Of a DNA stretch of 28,726 nucleotides, positions 25,451 to 28,060 are shown piece after piece. Below the pieces are notes generated by a model. That model searched no databases. It was not told where the DNA came from and worked only from the letters and a program-made list of their open reading frames with translations. Each line of letters starts with the position of its first letter. Within the stretch, counting starts at the first letter, position 1. The translations under genes were made by a program, and so were the position numbers. Origin of the DNA: a virus; IMG/VR virus record IMGVR_UViG_3300005077_000936, positions 1-28,726 of that record. The stretch is one strand, 5' to 3'.

Positions 25451-25945
25451 ATGACAAAGATCAATTTCACACAGGAGCATCAGTGGAGACTCAGAGAGCT
25501 TGCCATGATACTCCTTTTTGATGCCATCAAAATTAAGGGATTGATGGGAACAGAGCTGAATGTATATCAGCTTCTCAATGAAACCAGTATTAATTCCCTT
25601 CAGAACTTGCTTGCCTCCCTCAAGAAAGAGATTTCCAAAATCTCTGAACTTGATATGTGGAGCCTCACCGAATATCAGCAGAATAAGCTGAAAGATCTCC
25701 AGAAGCAGTATGAGTTCATTAACCTCTGTATTGGCTACAAGAAGTATCTTGCTGAGAAGGAAGCCAATAATGAGCAGGTTAAACAGCTCAAAGCTACCCT
25801 CAAGGAATTGCAGGAATCTACCAAGACACCACAGCAGAGAATTGATGAGCTTACTGCCCAAATCAATGCTCTCACAGATGAGACAGCATCTGTTTCTCCT
25901 GTTCCTGTGCCACCTGCACCACCTTCAACAGAACCTGCCAAATAA
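25451..25945 (+). CDS. Coiled-coil hypothetical protein
   Basis: 164 aa, heptad pattern, Pro-rich tail. Confidence 0.8.
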   Translation: MTKINFTQEHQWRLRELAMILLFDAIKIKGLMGTELNVYQLLNETSINSLQNLLASLKKEISKISELDMWSLTEYQQNKLKDLQKQYEFINLCIGYKKYLAEKEANNEQVKQLKATLKELQESTKTPQQRIDELTAQINALTDETASVSPVPVPPAPPSTEPAK

Positions 25946-25982
25946 TATTGGAAGAGAGAAGGACACTTACAAGACATACTCT

Positions 25983-26059
25983 ATACATTTACCTCAGTTG
26001 GTTAGAGGATGAGCCTTCAGAGCCCAGTGTCCCCAGTTCAATTCTGGGAATGTAGTCCA
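25983..26059 (+). tRNA. tRNA with UCA anticodon (opal suppressor-type; amino acid identity unknown)
   Basis: Acceptor ATACATT/AATGTAG (1:72 mismatch), D arm CCTC-AGTTGGTTA-GAGG, anticodon arm TGAGC-CT[TCA]GA-GCCCA (one mismatch), 5-nt variable loop, T arm CCCAG-TTCAATT-CTGGG, discriminator T, encoded CCA. Confidence 0.8.
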
Positions 26060-26093
26060 AAGTGTCCTTCTCTTTTCATAATCTTTTAAGACT

Positions 26094-26606
26094 ATGAAAG
26101 AAAATACCAATGCATCAAGCAGGTTATACTACCACACCAAACAGGAATTCAGGTCTTATTTTGCTTCTTTACAGTACAAGCCTGCATATCCTGCACTTGT
26201 TGATACTGCAACAGGAAAGAAAAGACAGACTTTTACCACCAGTCCTACTGATCCTATTGTGGATGTATCAGAGATTACCAAAATTAGGCCAGTTCCAAGA
26301 ATCACTTTTTGTGGCTTGATAATACCTCAGCCCCATGATAATGCTGAAATCCATATTGGAGTAGCAATGCAGGGACATAAGGATAATTTTTCCAAAAAGA
26401 TAGGAAGAAGTATTAGCTCCAAAAGAGCATCATCTTGTCCTCTTGTAATTGTTAATTGCAAAATTGATGAGATCATTCCTGTCTTTCATGAAGCTGTAAA
26501 GCACATGATTCCTGAAATCCTTGATTTAAGGATAACACGCAAACAAAAAGCAGAAAGGCTTTATCTTTCAATGAATGACATTCTTGAAGAAAAATCTGCT
26601 GACTGA
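26094..26606 (+). CDS. Hypothetical protein with Gp49/gp66-like G.A...D.F.KKIGR.I...RA motif
   Basis: 170 aa; IGVAMQGHKDNFSKKIGRSISSKRA. Confidence 0.7.
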   Translation: MKENTNASSRLYYHTKQEFRSYFASLQYKPAYPALVDTATGKKRQTFTTSPTDPIVDVSEITKIRPVPRITFCGLIIPQPHDNAEIHIGVAMQGHKDNFSKKIGRSISSKRASSCPLVIVNCKIDEIIPVFHEAVKHMIPEILDLRITRKQKAERLYLSMNDILEEKSAD

Positions 26607-27070
26607 TGATCCATATTAAATCCGCAGATGCTATTCATCAGTATGATGAACAAGGCAGAGCCATTACTACATGGGATGATAAAAAATGTGCATGGATTGT
26701 TAATCCAGAATTTGAGAATCAGGAGATAGATTGGTGGGGAAATGACAACGATTTTCCTGCTGGTAAAACTCTTAAAGATTTTATTTCTTCTAACCCTACT
26801 TGGGACAAAAAACCTGATATTACTGTTAAATGGACTTGGAAAACAAAGCATGATATGATAGCTTGTCTTGGAGCTCCCACTTCTATACCTGAAAGAGAAT
26901 GGTATGATAAGACCATATTTCCTTTTTCTGATTCAAGAAGTTGGGGACATTTAGAATACAATAAGGAAGAAGCTATCATGTACTTAGGTAAATACTGTGG
27001 CTTTAACAAAAATTCCACAACAGTAGTAACATACAATAACGAAGTAATTTTTGAAGGAATCTTAGAATAA
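26606..27070 (+). CDS. Hypothetical Trp-rich protein
   Basis: 154-aa ORF, TGATG coupling. Confidence 0.75.
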   Translation: MIHIKSADAIHQYDEQGRAITTWDDKKCAWIVNPEFENQEIDWWGNDNDFPAGKTLKDFISSNPTWDKKPDITVKWTWKTKHDMIACLGAPTSIPEREWYDKTIFPFSDSRSWGHLEYNKEEAIMYLGKYCGFNKNSTTVVTYNNEVIFEGILE

Positions 27071-27076
27071 TAAAAT

Positions 27077-27183
27077 GGGGGAGCTGATAATAATAGTGTC
27101 ATCTGAACACTTACAAGCCAATTAAAGGTTAATCAATTAGAACTGAGATCTAATCAAAGTTGGTTCAAATCCAACCTCCCCCA
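27077..27183 (+). ncRNA. tRNA-like RNA with ~30-35 nt insertion
   Basis: Perfect acceptor GGGGGAG/CTCCCCC+A and T arm GTTGG-TTCAAAT-CCAAC; 107 nt; non-canonical D and anticodon regions. Confidence 0.65.
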
Positions 27184-27227
27184 CTTTTTTTAATTCACAT
27201 TTTTATTCATTTAACACCCTAAAAAAC

Positions 27228-27368
27228 ATGGGACATCCAGAAGGACAAAGCCTTGAGGAAGTAAAAAACCTTGAAGCTGAAGGCAACGCAGAAGCTGCAC
27301 AGGTAACAGAAGCAAAAAATGCTGAAGAACCTCAGGCAGATAATACTGCTGAAGAGCCAAAAGAGTAA
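27228..27368 (+). CDS. Small highly acidic protein (46 aa)
   Basis: Below the track cut-off: MGHPEGQSLEEVKNLEAEGNAEAAQVTEAKNAEEPQADNTAEEPKE; A-rich leader. Confidence 0.7.
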   Translation: MGHPEGQSLEEVKNLEAEGNAEAAQVTEAKNAEEPQADNTAEEPKE

Positions 27369-27385
27369 CCCCGATTACCCAAACT

Positions 27386-27455
27386 AAGCTACTTACAATA
27401 TCTTTTTATGGCTGATAACCATATCATGCTGCCATCATGTAAGATTAAGTAGCTT
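27386..27455 (+). other. Long irregular hairpin immediately 5' of tRNA-Glu
   Basis: Nested AAGCTACTTA/TAAGTAGCTT, ATCTT/AAGAT, ATGGC/GCCAT and TGATA/TATCA stems. Confidence 0.6.
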
Positions 27456-27460
27456 TCTTT

Positions 27461-27532
27461 GCCCCTTTCATCTAACGGTTAGGATACAAGATTTTCAGTC
27501 TTGTCATATGAGTTCGATTCTCATAGGGGGTA
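27461..27532 (+). tRNA. tRNA-Glu(TTC)
   Basis: Acceptor GCCCCTT/AGGGGGT, anticodon arm CAAGA-TT[TTC]AG-TCTTG, T arm ATGAG-TTCGATT-CTCAT; CCA not encoded (CAA). Confidence 0.9.
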
Positions 27533-27541
27533 CAAAGTAAA

Positions 27542-28060
27542 TTAACATCAGAGGCCGAGAGTTGAAGAGTTACTGTTGCAGGTTTATTTTCAATTCAATA
27601 ATGTGTGTCAAGAAGGCTATGGCCTGCACACCTGATGTTAAAAGAATCTCTAAGGTGTAGAATGGAGGATGCATCTGTACATGAATGCTGTTAGAAGTTG
27701 CTGGCAAAGCCGATAAATAATTCCTCAGTTTTGCAACTCTATTATGGTCATGGGAGATTCTGATCTTAGGTTAATGATGATTCCTTTGTAAGTATGGTCA
27801 CATAACAGTGAGGCTGATGTTCCAGAAAGCATAAAAATGATGGCAGTAATGTCATATGTACTGAACCCTTGAGAAAGGTTAACGAATTGGATAATGTTCC
27901 AACAGTGCAAGTCAGTTCTCGGCAAGATGATCATGTAAATCAATATCGCCATTGTAGAAATACATATAAGTGAATATCGGTGTTGATCATTGTGACCCTA
28001 CTCTTATGGTAGCTACCTCTATGGGGTAGCTGAACAATAAGAAAGAGGGTGCTAACTAAA
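27542..28060 (+). ncRNA. Candidate large ornate non-coding RNA
   Basis: No credible ORF. Nested long-range stems TTAACATCAG/CTGATGTTAA, AGAATCTC/GAGATTCT, GGTCACA/TGTGACC, GAGGCTGA/TCAGTTCTC, ATCAATATCG/CGGTGTTGAT, plus GNRA-capped hairpins. Confidence 0.65.

What the first reader, a model, noticed from the sequence alone, without database searches (positions are those of the whole stretch)
27077..27183. tRNA mimic with perfect acceptor/T arms, an insertion and two alternative anticodon stems
Seen: fold A pairs TTAGA (27137-41) with TCTAA (27149-53), giving a 7-nt loop ACTGAGA and a normal 5-nt variable loop but a 53-nt D region containing two hairpins. Fold B pairs TCTGA (27102-06) with the same TTAGA, giving a normal D arm and a 30-nt anticodon loop. 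It lacks U8, the D-loop GG, U33 and G3.U70. Inference: intact outer arms argue against simple decay, so it may be a decoy for anticodon nucleases or uncharged-tRNA sensors, a processing tag, or a conformational switch.
Basis: partly seen in the sequence, partly recalled or inferred. Interest (0 to 1): 0.7.

Follow-up and report, generated by a model that had tools for sequence, protein, structure and literature searches.

The report
Handle-tagged tRNA-shaped phage RNA
This is a real, conserved small RNA gene of a crAss-like gut phage: a tRNA cloverleaf with a short conserved hairpin "handle" grafted into its D loop, one of a large undescribed family that travels with a phage protein resembling the RNA-binding protein Ro60, and probably that protein's partner RNA rather than a working tRNA.

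Summary
The correct fold is a full cloverleaf. A 4-bp D stem (27085-88/27132-35) closes a 43-nt D loop, which holds a hairpin plus UACAA (27095-27116) and the usual GG (27127-28).

A covariance model built only from 13 such RNAs of other phages matches 27077-27183 end to end (61 bits, E about 1e-12). The nearest relative keeps every helix through compensatory changes and has a canonical Ile-type anticodon loop. Here that loop is shifted (C33).

The genome holds two more tagged tRNA-shaped RNAs, at 31082 and 31454. The 8-nt box ACTTACAA is found almost only beside a 616-aa gene (32218-34068). That gene encodes a helical-repeat plus vWA protein that resembles Ro60 by fold and language-model features, not by Pfam.

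Fold B has about 1% ensemble probability, and the family's covarying hairpin argues against it.

Best reading (about 0.55): a non-decoding tRNA scaffold that carries the docking handle of the phage Ro60-like protein, a new form of Y RNA. The main rival is that the box is a promoter or processing signal.

This scan had already noted the same system in this genome and similar ones on other DNA. No paper I searched describes it.

The parts
27077..27083 (+). acceptor stem, 5' strand (GGGGGAG)
   Evidence: 7/7 Watson-Crick pairs with 27176-82. Acceptor pairs covary in the family. Aligned end to end by model R1.
27084..27084 (+). single-nucleotide linker (C) in place of U8-N9
   Evidence: R1 alignment shows one deleted position here.
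27085..27088 (+). D stem, 5' strand (TGAT)
   Evidence: Pairs 4/4 with ATCA 27132-35. The D stem spanning the insert covaries in all four pairs in relatives.
27089..27131 (+). expanded 43-nt D loop carrying the handle; GG at 27127-28
   Evidence: Same layout as 13 RNAs of other phages. GG aligned with high posterior probability.
27095..27116 (+). handle: hairpin AGTGT (27095-99), loop CATCTGA (27100-06), ACACT (27107-11), then single-stranded TACAA (27112-16)
   Evidence: One of exactly three AGT...ACT|TACAA hairpins in the 98.7-kb genome, all on the + strand inside tRNA-shaped bodies. In 61 distinct tags the stem covaries, with 18 G.U wobbles against 3 A.C pairs.
27132..27135 (+). D stem, 3' strand (ATCA)
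27137..27153 (+). anticodon-like arm: TTAGA, loop ACTGAGA (C at position 33), TCTAA
   Evidence: 5/5 pairs. Pair probability 0.78-0.84. The nearest relative has TTAGA-CTGATAA-TCTGA, a canonical loop.
27154..27158 (+). 5-nt variable loop (TCAAA)
27159..27175 (+). T arm GTTGG-TTCAAAT-CCAAC
   Evidence: Identical T arm plus acceptor strand occurs in real phage tRNAs.
27176..27183 (+). acceptor stem 3' strand (CTCCCCC) and discriminator A; no encoded CCA
   Evidence: Encoded CCA is rare in both the tagged RNAs and the ordinary tRNAs of these phages.
27185..27191 (+). run of seven T directly after the RNA (possible 3' end signal)
   Evidence: Sequence. The simple terminator scan does not call it.
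25965..25972 (+). linear copy of the box ACTTACAA, 10 nt before tRNA(UCA)
27391..27398 (+). linear copy of the box (CTACTTACAAT), 62 nt before tRNA-Glu

Best explanation
The locus encodes a stable, about 107-nt, tRNA-derived small RNA. It is transcribed from the + strand and folds as a complete cloverleaf. An extra arm projects from the variable 5' part of the D loop.

That arm is a conserved 'handle': a short helix whose base is always AGU/ACU, followed by single-stranded UACAA. The same 8-nt box (ACUUACAA) marks two further tagged tRNA-shaped RNAs 4 kb downstream. It also occurs in the spacers and leaders of the neighbouring tRNAs. A permuted form lies in the leader of a 616-aa gene (genome 32218-34068), whose product has the architecture of Ro60: a helical-repeat domain plus a vWA domain with a MIDAS motif.

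Inferred mechanism: the Ro60-like protein docks on the handle, and the tRNA body serves as the second, effector-binding module. The RNA would then work like a Y RNA (YrlA type), tethering or gating the ring protein. This copy does not decode, because its anticodon loop has slipped (C33) and U8 is lost.

Shown here: the structure, its conservation and covariation, the family, and its exclusive genomic linkage to the protein gene.

Inferred only: expression as a stable RNA, physical binding, and the downstream function.
For: 1. A covariance model built from 13 D-loop-tagged RNAs of other phages (alignment A3) matches 27077-27183 over all 124 model positions: 61.1 bits, E about 1e-12. Ordinary tRNAs reach at most 55.5 bits. 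In A3, 97% of cells pair, 20 of 28 pairs show changes on both sides, and 0 of 500 shuffles reach this.

2. The nearest relative is L265:1684-1793, in a phage whose 616-aa protein is 55% identical. It has the same acceptor stem. Its D stem changed GCUU/AAGC against UGAU/AUCA, its T stem changed one pair on both sides, and its handle is AGUGGA/UUCACU. The flanking ORFs are not homologous.

3. Handle: 61 distinct copies with an invariant AGU...ACU|UACA, four variable stem positions that covary, and 18 G.U wobbles against 3 A.C pairs. This means the hairpin is selected on the + strand.

4. Linkage to the protein gene:
- 82 strict tags lie on the gene's strand and 6 on the other, in 1.06 Mb around 55 homologues.
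- The box occurs 405 times on that strand and 48 on the other.
- All 17 tag-bearing loci from a blind IMG/VR pattern scan lie on contigs that carry the gene: 16 within the fetched flanks, and one found on the same contig by a later search. Loci with chance matches do not carry it.
- In whole genomes the boxes cluster only next to the gene, with one copy 25-35 nt before its start codon. Nine of ten phages of 80-112 kb without the gene show only scattered background copies; the tenth (G005) has an unexplained cluster of three boxes.

5. Protein:
- The top 13 Foldseek matches are all Ro60/TROVE structures (E about 2e-6).
- The VIA-align top 10 are all Ro60 (Z 11.2-13.1) and span both domains.
- 27 of the 30 nearest named ESM-Atlas clusters are TROVE plus vWA_Ro60 (score 0.97), and the structural TM-score to RO60 and to DUF2828 is 0.50.
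- A DDSGSM MIDAS motif is present.

6. Non-decoding: 21 of 45 tagged RNAs have non-canonical anticodon loops, against 3 of 80 ordinary tRNAs. 17 of 36 canonical tagged loops duplicate an ordinary tRNA in the same locus.

7. Precedent: Y RNAs with tRNA-like domains are encoded next to Ro60 in bacteria and phages (PMC4201824), and phage phiLo Ro60 binds two neighbouring Y-like RNAs (PMC12135203).
Against: - There is no expression or binding data.
- The protein has no Pfam TROVE hit, even at E = 10, and no sequence match in the PDB.
- Its N-terminal domain modelled alone gives only generic helical-repeat matches. The vWA domain alone already scores up to Z 11.0, so the Ro60 ranking exceeds vWA-only matches by only about 2 Z units.
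- The handle has no GNCGAA or GGUCCGA motif, and the Rfam YrlA model does not match.
- The 302 linear boxes lie 4-14 nt before tRNA 5' ends, 8-10 nt after the preceding 3' ends, and before ORFs. That layout fits a promoter or processing signal as well as it fits a protein-binding site.
- This copy is an outlier: 5.0 kb from the gene, a 5-bp stem, a 7-nt loop, and the tail UACAAGC instead of UACAAUA.
- About half of the family keeps canonical anticodon loops, so some members may still decode.
Confidence: 0.55

Rival explanations
1. The box (G-N-Y-ACTTACAA) is a DNA-level promoter, or an RNA processing site, used only by the Ro60-like gene and its neighbouring small-RNA genes. The copy inside this tRNA-shaped gene would be such a signal embedded in, or mimicked by, the RNA. 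The upstream complement would exist only to keep the insert folded away.
For: - 302 distinct linear boxes lie in spacers, typically 4-14 nt before the next tRNA 5' end, 8-10 nt after the previous 3' end, and 20-35 nt before ORF starts, including the Ro60-like gene.
- In this genome the boxes sit at the heads of apparent transcription units: 25965, 27391, 29726, 34299.
- The box resembles the -10/discriminator stretch of the T7 A1 promoter as printed in bioRxiv 10.1101/2020.03.07.982082.
Against: - The boxes are confined to the immediate neighbourhood of one gene rather than spread over the genome.
- There is no -35-like block or any conservation beyond about 14 nt.
- Acceptor and D stems that span the insert covary, so the full-length RNA containing the box is the selected molecule.
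- An internal start would produce only a 3' tRNA fragment.
- The hairpin stems show the G.U bias expected for structure on the transcribed-sense strand.
- Bacteroidota promoters have a different consensus (my knowledge).
Confidence: 0.2
2. It is a working tRNA. Either it tolerates a long D-loop arm, or the insert is removed by an unknown splicing step.
For: - The cloverleaf is perfect, with a 7-nt loop.
- The nearest relative has a canonical CUGAUAA loop.
- 24 of 45 tagged RNAs have canonical loops.
- The insertion sits in the structurally tolerant part of the D loop, 5' of G18-G19, or in the variable region in the sister RNAs.
Against: - This copy has C33, a single-nucleotide 8/9 linker and G37 after a UGA triplet in a type I body.
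- ARAGORN with intron search does not call it.
- The insert is too short for a group I intron, and no Rfam intron model matches.
- What is conserved is the hairpin and UACAA, not the junctions.
- Non-canonical loops are more than ten times as frequent as in ordinary tRNAs.
Confidence: 0.1
3. It is a decaying tRNA pseudogene, or a scar left by a mobile insertion, with no function.
For: - tRNA finders do not recognise it.
- The anticodon loop is degenerate.
Against: - All 26 of 26 helix pairs are Watson-Crick in a 36% G+C genome.
- The helices are kept by compensatory changes against a relative whose flanking genes differ.
- The same architecture recurs in many phages with covariation.
Confidence: 0.05
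4. It is a two-state conformational switch between fold A and fold B.
For: The TCTGA/TTAGA and GATA/TGTC complementarity exists.
Against: - Fold B is 2.3 kcal/mol worse when enforced, and its pairs have probabilities of 0.04 or less.
- It would destroy the covarying handle hairpin.
- Relatives have 3-4-nt handle loops that cannot supply the alternative strand.
Confidence: 0.03

Closest known systems
YrlA-type bacterial and phage Y RNAs bound by Ro60/Rsr (Chen et al. 2014, PMC4201824; Rfam RF02553)
   Same: - A small RNA encoded on the same strand, near a Ro60-type gene.
- It contains tRNA-like D and T arms.
- Several different partner RNAs occur per locus.
- It has a modular design: a protein-docking element plus a tRNA-like module.
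   Different: - No match to the YrlA covariance model.
- The docking motif is a hairpin plus UACAA, not GNCGAAN0-1G.
- Opposite topology: here the acceptor stem is open and carries the RNA ends, and the handle is an internal graft in the D loop. In YrlA the ends lie in the Ro-binding stem and the acceptor-like arm is closed.
- The protein is not recognised by Pfam TROVE.
- The RNA lies 5.0 kb from the gene, against 4 kb or less.
Thermus phage phiLo Ro60 with Yrl1/Yrl2 (PMC12135203; PDB 9KOP, 9L5Y)
   Same: - A phage-encoded Ro60-type ring protein with its own neighbouring partner RNAs.
- The phiLo structures are among the top fold matches of the 616-aa protein.
   Different: - The phiLo RNAs were chosen by a CGAA motif and are not full tRNA cloverleaves.
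- Binding, and a complex with host PNPase, were shown there. Nothing has been shown here.
Ordinary phage tRNA genes
   Same: - 7-bp acceptor stem, T arm with a TTCAAAT loop, 5-bp anticodon stem, 5-nt variable loop, discriminator A.
- The T arm plus acceptor strand is identical to real phage tRNAs.
   Different: - A 43-nt D loop with an extra arm.
- No U8, and C33.
- Below the Rfam tRNA gathering score (17.9 against 29 bits) and not called by ARAGORN.
Archaeal tRNA genes with introns at non-canonical positions (for example D loop; PMC3241643)
   Same: Inserts of 30-50 nt at varied positions of tRNA genes (D loop, variable region, anticodon region).
   Different: - The host is a bacterium, with no splicing endonuclease.
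- The conserved feature is an internal hairpin plus UACAA, not a bulge-helix-bulge at the junctions. I did not search formally for that motif.

Membership tests
Canonical tRNA (Rfam RF00005 / ARAGORN) | Scores above the family threshold with tRNA finders | tested here: not met
   Rfam tRNA gives 17.9 bits against a gathering score of 29, covering only model positions 9-63. ARAGORN does not call it with or without intron search or at lowered thresholds.
Canonical tRNA (Rfam RF00005 / ARAGORN) | Cloverleaf: 7-bp acceptor, 3-4-bp D stem, 5-bp anticodon stem, 5-bp T stem with a 7-nt T loop | tested here: met
   All four helices are present and fully Watson-Crick.
Canonical tRNA (Rfam RF00005 / ARAGORN) | D loop of 7-11 nt, U8, U33 and a purine at position 37 in a 7-nt anticodon loop | tested here: not met
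   The D loop is 43 nt. A single C is the 8/9 linker. The loop ACUGAGA has C at position 33.
YrlA / Y RNA (Rfam RF02553) | Match to the YrlA covariance model | tested here: not met
   No match at E up to 10 in 25800-27700 or in the whole 98.7-kb genome.
YrlA / Y RNA (Rfam RF02553) | GNCGAAN0-1G (or GGUCCGA-like) Ro-binding motif near the 5' end (PMC4201824) | tested here: not met
   There is no CGAA anywhere in 27077-27183. The conserved element is AGU-stem-ACU|UACAA.
YrlA / Y RNA (Rfam RF02553) | Encoded within about 4 kb of a Ro60 orthologue, on the same strand | tested here: inconclusive
   It is on the same strand, but 5.0 kb upstream of the 616-aa gene. The two sister RNAs lie 0.6-1.1 kb upstream.
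YrlA / Y RNA (Rfam RF02553) | tRNA-like D and T arms | tested here: met
YrlA / Y RNA (Rfam RF02553) | Bound by Ro60 in vivo or in vitro | not testable with these tools
   Needs RIP, EMSA or a structure. The complex predictor takes proteins only.
Handle-tagged tRNA-scaffold RNAs of phages with the 616-aa protein (unpublished family defined here and in earlier scan notes) | Handle: helix with an AGU/ACU base followed by UACAA, on the strand of the protein gene | tested here: met
   AGTGT-CATCTGA-ACACT|TACAA at 27095-27116. It is one of three such hairpins in the genome. The family handle is defined from 61 distinct copies.
Handle-tagged tRNA-scaffold RNAs of phages with the 616-aa protein (unpublished family defined here and in earlier scan notes) | Full-length match to a covariance model built without this sequence | tested here: met
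   Model R1, 61.1 bits, E about 1e-12, model positions 1-124 of 124.
Ro60 / TROVE proteins (for the 616-aa partner) | Pfam TROVE domain (PF05731) | tested here: not met
   No Pfam hit at E 0.01 or below. A six-frame search of the genome with PF05731 finds nothing at E up to 10, while the controls D. radiodurans and B. thetaiotaomicron do hit.
Ro60 / TROVE proteins (for the 616-aa partner) | Helical-repeat ring plus C-terminal vWA domain with MIDAS; overall fold like solved Ro60 | tested here: met
   DDSGSM motif. Foldseek top 13 are all Ro60/TROVE, E 2e-6 to 2e-4. VIA-align top 10 are all Ro60, Z 11.2-13.1, spanning residues 14-612. ESM-Atlas features and a TM-score of 0.50 to RO60.
Ro60 / TROVE proteins (for the 616-aa partner) | N-terminal domain on its own recognisable as TROVE | tested here: inconclusive
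   The model of residues 1-365 (pLDDT 80.6) gives only generic helical-repeat matches: Foldseek best E 0.1, VIA wide best Z 6.2.
tmRNA | tRNA-like domain plus tag reading frame | tested here: not met
   ARAGORN tmRNA search finds nothing, even at a lowered threshold. No Rfam tmRNA match at E up to 10.

The most novel reading that the evidence does not exclude
Phages of many lineages carry an undescribed ribonucleoprotein system. A divergent Ro60-like ring protein recognises a short helix-plus-UACAA handle, and that handle has been grafted repeatedly into structurally tolerant sites of complete, open-ended tRNAs (D loop, variable region, anticodon loop).

The tRNA body would then be a functional bait or adaptor. 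It could be CCA-tailed, or even charged, and could bring host tRNA-binding enzymes, defence nucleases or exoribonucleases to the ring. The same handle in tRNA spacers and in the protein's own mRNA leader would let the protein supervise maturation of the phage tRNA array and regulate itself.
Probability: 0.25. Interest if true: 0.8.

Novelty: new variant of a known kind. Interest (0 to 1): 0.6.

Why it matters
Why Ro60 partner RNAs mimic tRNA is an open question. Here the mimic is a whole tRNA cloverleaf with free ends, and the docking element is a small, portable graft.

That gives a clean natural experiment. The same handle sits on different tRNA bodies and at different sites, and the family grades from apparently functional to clearly non-decoding anticodon loops.

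The family is large: at least 684 protein clusters, and dozens of RNA variants. It is phage-specific and unannotated, and tRNA finders either miss the RNAs or mis-call them as intron-containing tRNAs. It therefore also affects how phage tRNA repertoires are annotated.

If the protein does bind the handle, the system offers a compact RNA tag and reader pair. It would also open a route to studying what phage Ro60 particles do during infection of gut Bacteroidota.

Tried and rejected
- **Anticodon kissing.** In this genome the UGA-like loop of the candidate is complementary to tRNA(UCA), and the GAA loop of the RNA at 31454 is complementary to tRNA-Glu(UUC). Across 55 loci, complementary pairs are no more frequent than in shuffles (5 of 36 against a mean of 4.7). 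Rejected.
- **CTTACAA as a Val-type anticodon loop.** The flanks do not pair, so the hairpin reading stands.
- **attP-like 3' tRNA half.** Rejected, because the 5' acceptor strand and the D stem are present and covary.
- **Close relatives by DNA or neighbouring protein.**
  - blastn against GenBank phages found none.
  - The 154-aa neighbour in IMG/VR gave none.
  - TerL gave only 6 relatives, mostly short fragments, too few for a presence/absence table.
  - tblastn of the 616-aa protein against GenBank phages found none.
  - P0002 contigs had no DNA on file.
- **Bacterial and archaeal species genomes.** Only 3 hits to the protein, all on short MAG contigs.
- **RtcB in this genome.** Absent.
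- **Profile search of the protein family against PDB sequences.** Only a chance CheY match.
- **N-terminal domain alone.** No specific fold match.
- **Simple sigma-70 promoter and terminator scan around the locus.** Nothing above shuffles.

Full report
**Setting.** The window is the first 28.7 kb of a complete 98,740-bp virus record. It has crAss-type portal, large terminase and major head proteins and a 4,568-aa giant ORF. All long genes are open under table 11. G+C is 36%.

**Observation.** The 108-nt stretch folds to -28.2 kcal/mol, with z = -3.2 against dinucleotide shuffles. ARAGORN and Rfam at gathering score find only tRNA(UCA) at 25983 and tRNA-Glu at 27461. A permissive Rfam scan gives a partial tRNA match of 17.9 bits over 27121-27175, and no Y RNA, YrlA, tmRNA or intron family. 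ARAGORN with introns, lowered thresholds or tmRNA mode does not recover the locus.

**Sister elements and a shared box.** ARAGORN's intron mode instead calls two 'intron tRNAs' at 31082-31204 and 31454-31575. Both have perfect acceptor and T arms and a 40-50-nt insert. All three inserts contain a hairpin whose base is AGT/ACT, followed by TACAA. A strict search finds exactly these three hairpins in the genome, all on the + strand. The bare 8-mer ACTTACAA also occurs 10 nt before tRNA(UCA), 62 nt before tRNA-Glu, and before two ORFs. A permuted version (ACACT-TACAC...AGTGT) lies in the leader of a 616-aa ORF at 32218-34068.

**A family in other phages.** Pattern scans of IMG/VR (box, then a gap of 20-50 nt, then a T loop) returned many 105-136-nt tRNA-shaped genes with the same handle.
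- In 61 distinct handles the AGT...ACT|TACA core is invariant.
- Stem positions 4-7 covary.
- Non-Watson-Crick pairs are mostly G.T (18) rather than A.C (3), so the hairpin is selected on the sense strand.
- The handle sits at different sites: inside the D loop, after the D arm, replacing the anticodon loop, or in the variable region.

**The D-loop class and the candidate.** Thirteen D-loop-tagged RNAs from nine phage loci align well (A3).
- Acceptor, handle, anticodon and T helices are predicted by RNAalifold.
- When the D stem that spans the insert is added, 97% of cells pair, 20 of 28 pairs change on both sides, and no shuffle or slid register comes close.
- A covariance model from these 13 sequences (R1) matches window 27077-27183 over its whole length at 61.1 bits.

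The R1 alignment fixes the fold:
- a one-nucleotide linker (C27084);
- D stem TGAT/ATCA;
- a 43-nt D loop with the handle and the conserved GG;
- A26;
- anticodon-like arm, 5-nt variable loop, T arm, and discriminator A.

Ordinary tRNAs reach at most 55.5 bits on R1, so the score alone is not decisive. The high-confidence alignment through the handle is what places the candidate in the class.

**Nearest relative.** The phage whose 616-aa protein is closest and has DNA available (55% identity, L265) carries a 110-nt RNA at 1684-1793, scoring 81 bits.
- It has the same acceptor stem and the same TTAGA anticodon stem strand.
- It shows compensatory changes in the D stem (three pairs), the T stem (one pair) and the handle.
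- The neighbouring ORFs are unrelated.
- Its loop is CUGAUAA (Ile type). The candidate's ACUGAGA looks like the same loop slipped by one nucleotide.

Across the family, 21 of 45 tagged RNAs have non-canonical loops, against 3 of 80 ordinary tRNAs in the same loci. 17 of 36 canonical tagged loops duplicate an ordinary tRNA nearby. Neither class usually encodes CCA.

**Fold B.** When enforced, it is 2.3 kcal/mol worse than the cloverleaf. In the ensemble its stems have probabilities of 0.04 or less, against 0.57-0.94 for the handle hairpin. It consumes the conserved hairpin, and relatives with 3-4-nt handle loops cannot form it. I reject the switch.

**Linkage to the 616-aa gene.**
- tblastn finds a 33-50% identical homologue in 16 of the 17 tag-bearing loci of the blind scan. 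The seventeenth lies on a contig where a later search found the gene. None of the loci with chance matches has one.
- Around 55 homologues (1.06 Mb), strict handles number 82 on the gene's strand and 6 on the other. They lie mostly within 0.2-2.5 kb of the gene.
- The bare box numbers 405 against 48.
- In four complete genomes with the gene, boxes cluster only beside it: 5-7 copies in the RNA array and one 25-35 nt before the start codon.
- Ten phage records of 80-112 kb without the gene show background counts. One of them (G005) has an unexplained cluster of three boxes.
- The protein family has at least 684 clusters, all unnamed and without Pfam domains.
- It is absent from GenBank phages.
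- It is almost absent from 185,000 bacterial and archaeal species genomes: 3 short MAG contigs.

**What the protein is.**
- There is no Pfam hit, no TROVE signal at E up to 10, and no PDB sequence match.
- The alignment shows a DDSGSM MIDAS motif.
- The AlphaFold model (pLDDT 76.8) has Ro60/TROVE structures as its top 13 Foldseek matches and as its top 10 VIA-align matches (Z 11.2-13.1, spanning both domains). vWA-only matches follow at Z 11.0 or below.
- ESM-Atlas features place it among TROVE plus vWA_Ro60 clusters (27 of 30, score 0.97), with TM 0.50 to RO60 and DUF2828 models.
- The N-terminal 365 residues modelled alone match only generic helical repeats.

I therefore call it Ro60-like in architecture and a probable distant relative, not a demonstrated TROVE member.

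**Interpretation.** Bacterial and phage Ro60 genes are flanked by Y RNAs with tRNA-like domains (PMC4201824). Phage phiLo Ro60 binds two neighbouring Y-like RNAs and recruits host PNPase (PMC12135203). By analogy, the handle is the docking site and the tRNA body is the second module. This copy has a slipped loop and no U8, so it is a non-decoding scaffold.

The differences from YrlA are real. The motif is different, the acceptor end is open, the handle is grafted internally, and the YrlA model does not match.

The main rival is that the box is a promoter or processing signal private to this gene module. The spacing of linear boxes between tRNAs and before ORFs fits that well. I could not obtain RNA data. 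Against it stand three points: the box is confined to one gene's neighbourhood, there is no second promoter block, and there is selection on the full-length RNA that contains the box.

**Relation to earlier scan notes.** I found the sister RNAs and the shared box before consulting the notes. The Ro60 lead came from them, and I tested it here. Notes on other genomes describe similar 'helix plus ACAGCAA' handles beside Ro60-like genes. One of these was later down-rated for its bold reading. I did not test them.

Noticed in passing
window 25983-26059, and box at 25965-25972: A canonical tRNA with anticodon UCA (reads UGA) lies in a genome whose long genes are all open under table 11. It is preceded, 10 nt upstream, by the same ACTTACAA box.
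   Followed up: partly
genome 32150-32195 (L209:3451-3496), just before the 616-aa ORF: A permuted handle. ACACT-TACAC is the 5' strand and loop, and AGTGT is the 3' strand of a hairpin in the mRNA leader. This suggests the protein may bind its own message. In relatives a linear box lies 25-35 nt before the start codon.
   Followed up: partly
genome 31082-31204 and 31454-31575 (L209:2383-2504, 2755-2875): ARAGORN's 'tRNA-Leu(tag) with 50-nt intron' and 'tRNA-Pyl(cta) with 29-nt intron' are mis-parsed handle-tagged RNAs, with the handle in the variable region.
   Followed up: partly
window 27531-27536: The last acceptor base, the discriminator and the 3' trailer of tRNA-Glu read T-ACAA-A. A helix followed by UACAA occurs here too. 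This may be chance.
   Followed up: no
G005 (record behind L025), 46442-47124: Three ACTTACAA boxes lie within 700 bp on one strand, in a complete 95-kb phage where tblastn finds no homologue of the 616-aa protein. This could be a divergent partner or a counter-example.
   Followed up: no
L003:4369-4393 (-) and L007:3595-3619: An isolated 3' tRNA half (T arm plus acceptor strand, identical to the candidate's) has no 5' acceptor strand. It is followed 13 nt later by a complete tRNA that starts GGGGGAG. It may be a duplication or the remnant of a cassette insertion.
   Followed up: no
L210-L264: The 55 loci around homologues of the 616-aa gene hold 603 ordinary tRNA genes by ARAGORN, so the gene usually sits inside or beside large phage tRNA arrays.
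   Followed up: no
L265:8395-9534; genome 34702-35994: An adenylosuccinate-synthetase-like gene recurs within a few kb of the Ro60-like gene, in this phage and in two relatives.
   Followed up: no
box consensus against the T7 A1 promoter: The spacer box (TAGGATACTTACAA in several phages) nearly equals the -10/discriminator stretch GGATACTTACAG of the T7 A1 promoter, as printed in bioRxiv 10.1101/2020.03.07.982082. It may be a coincidence, but it is a lead for the promoter rival.
   Followed up: no
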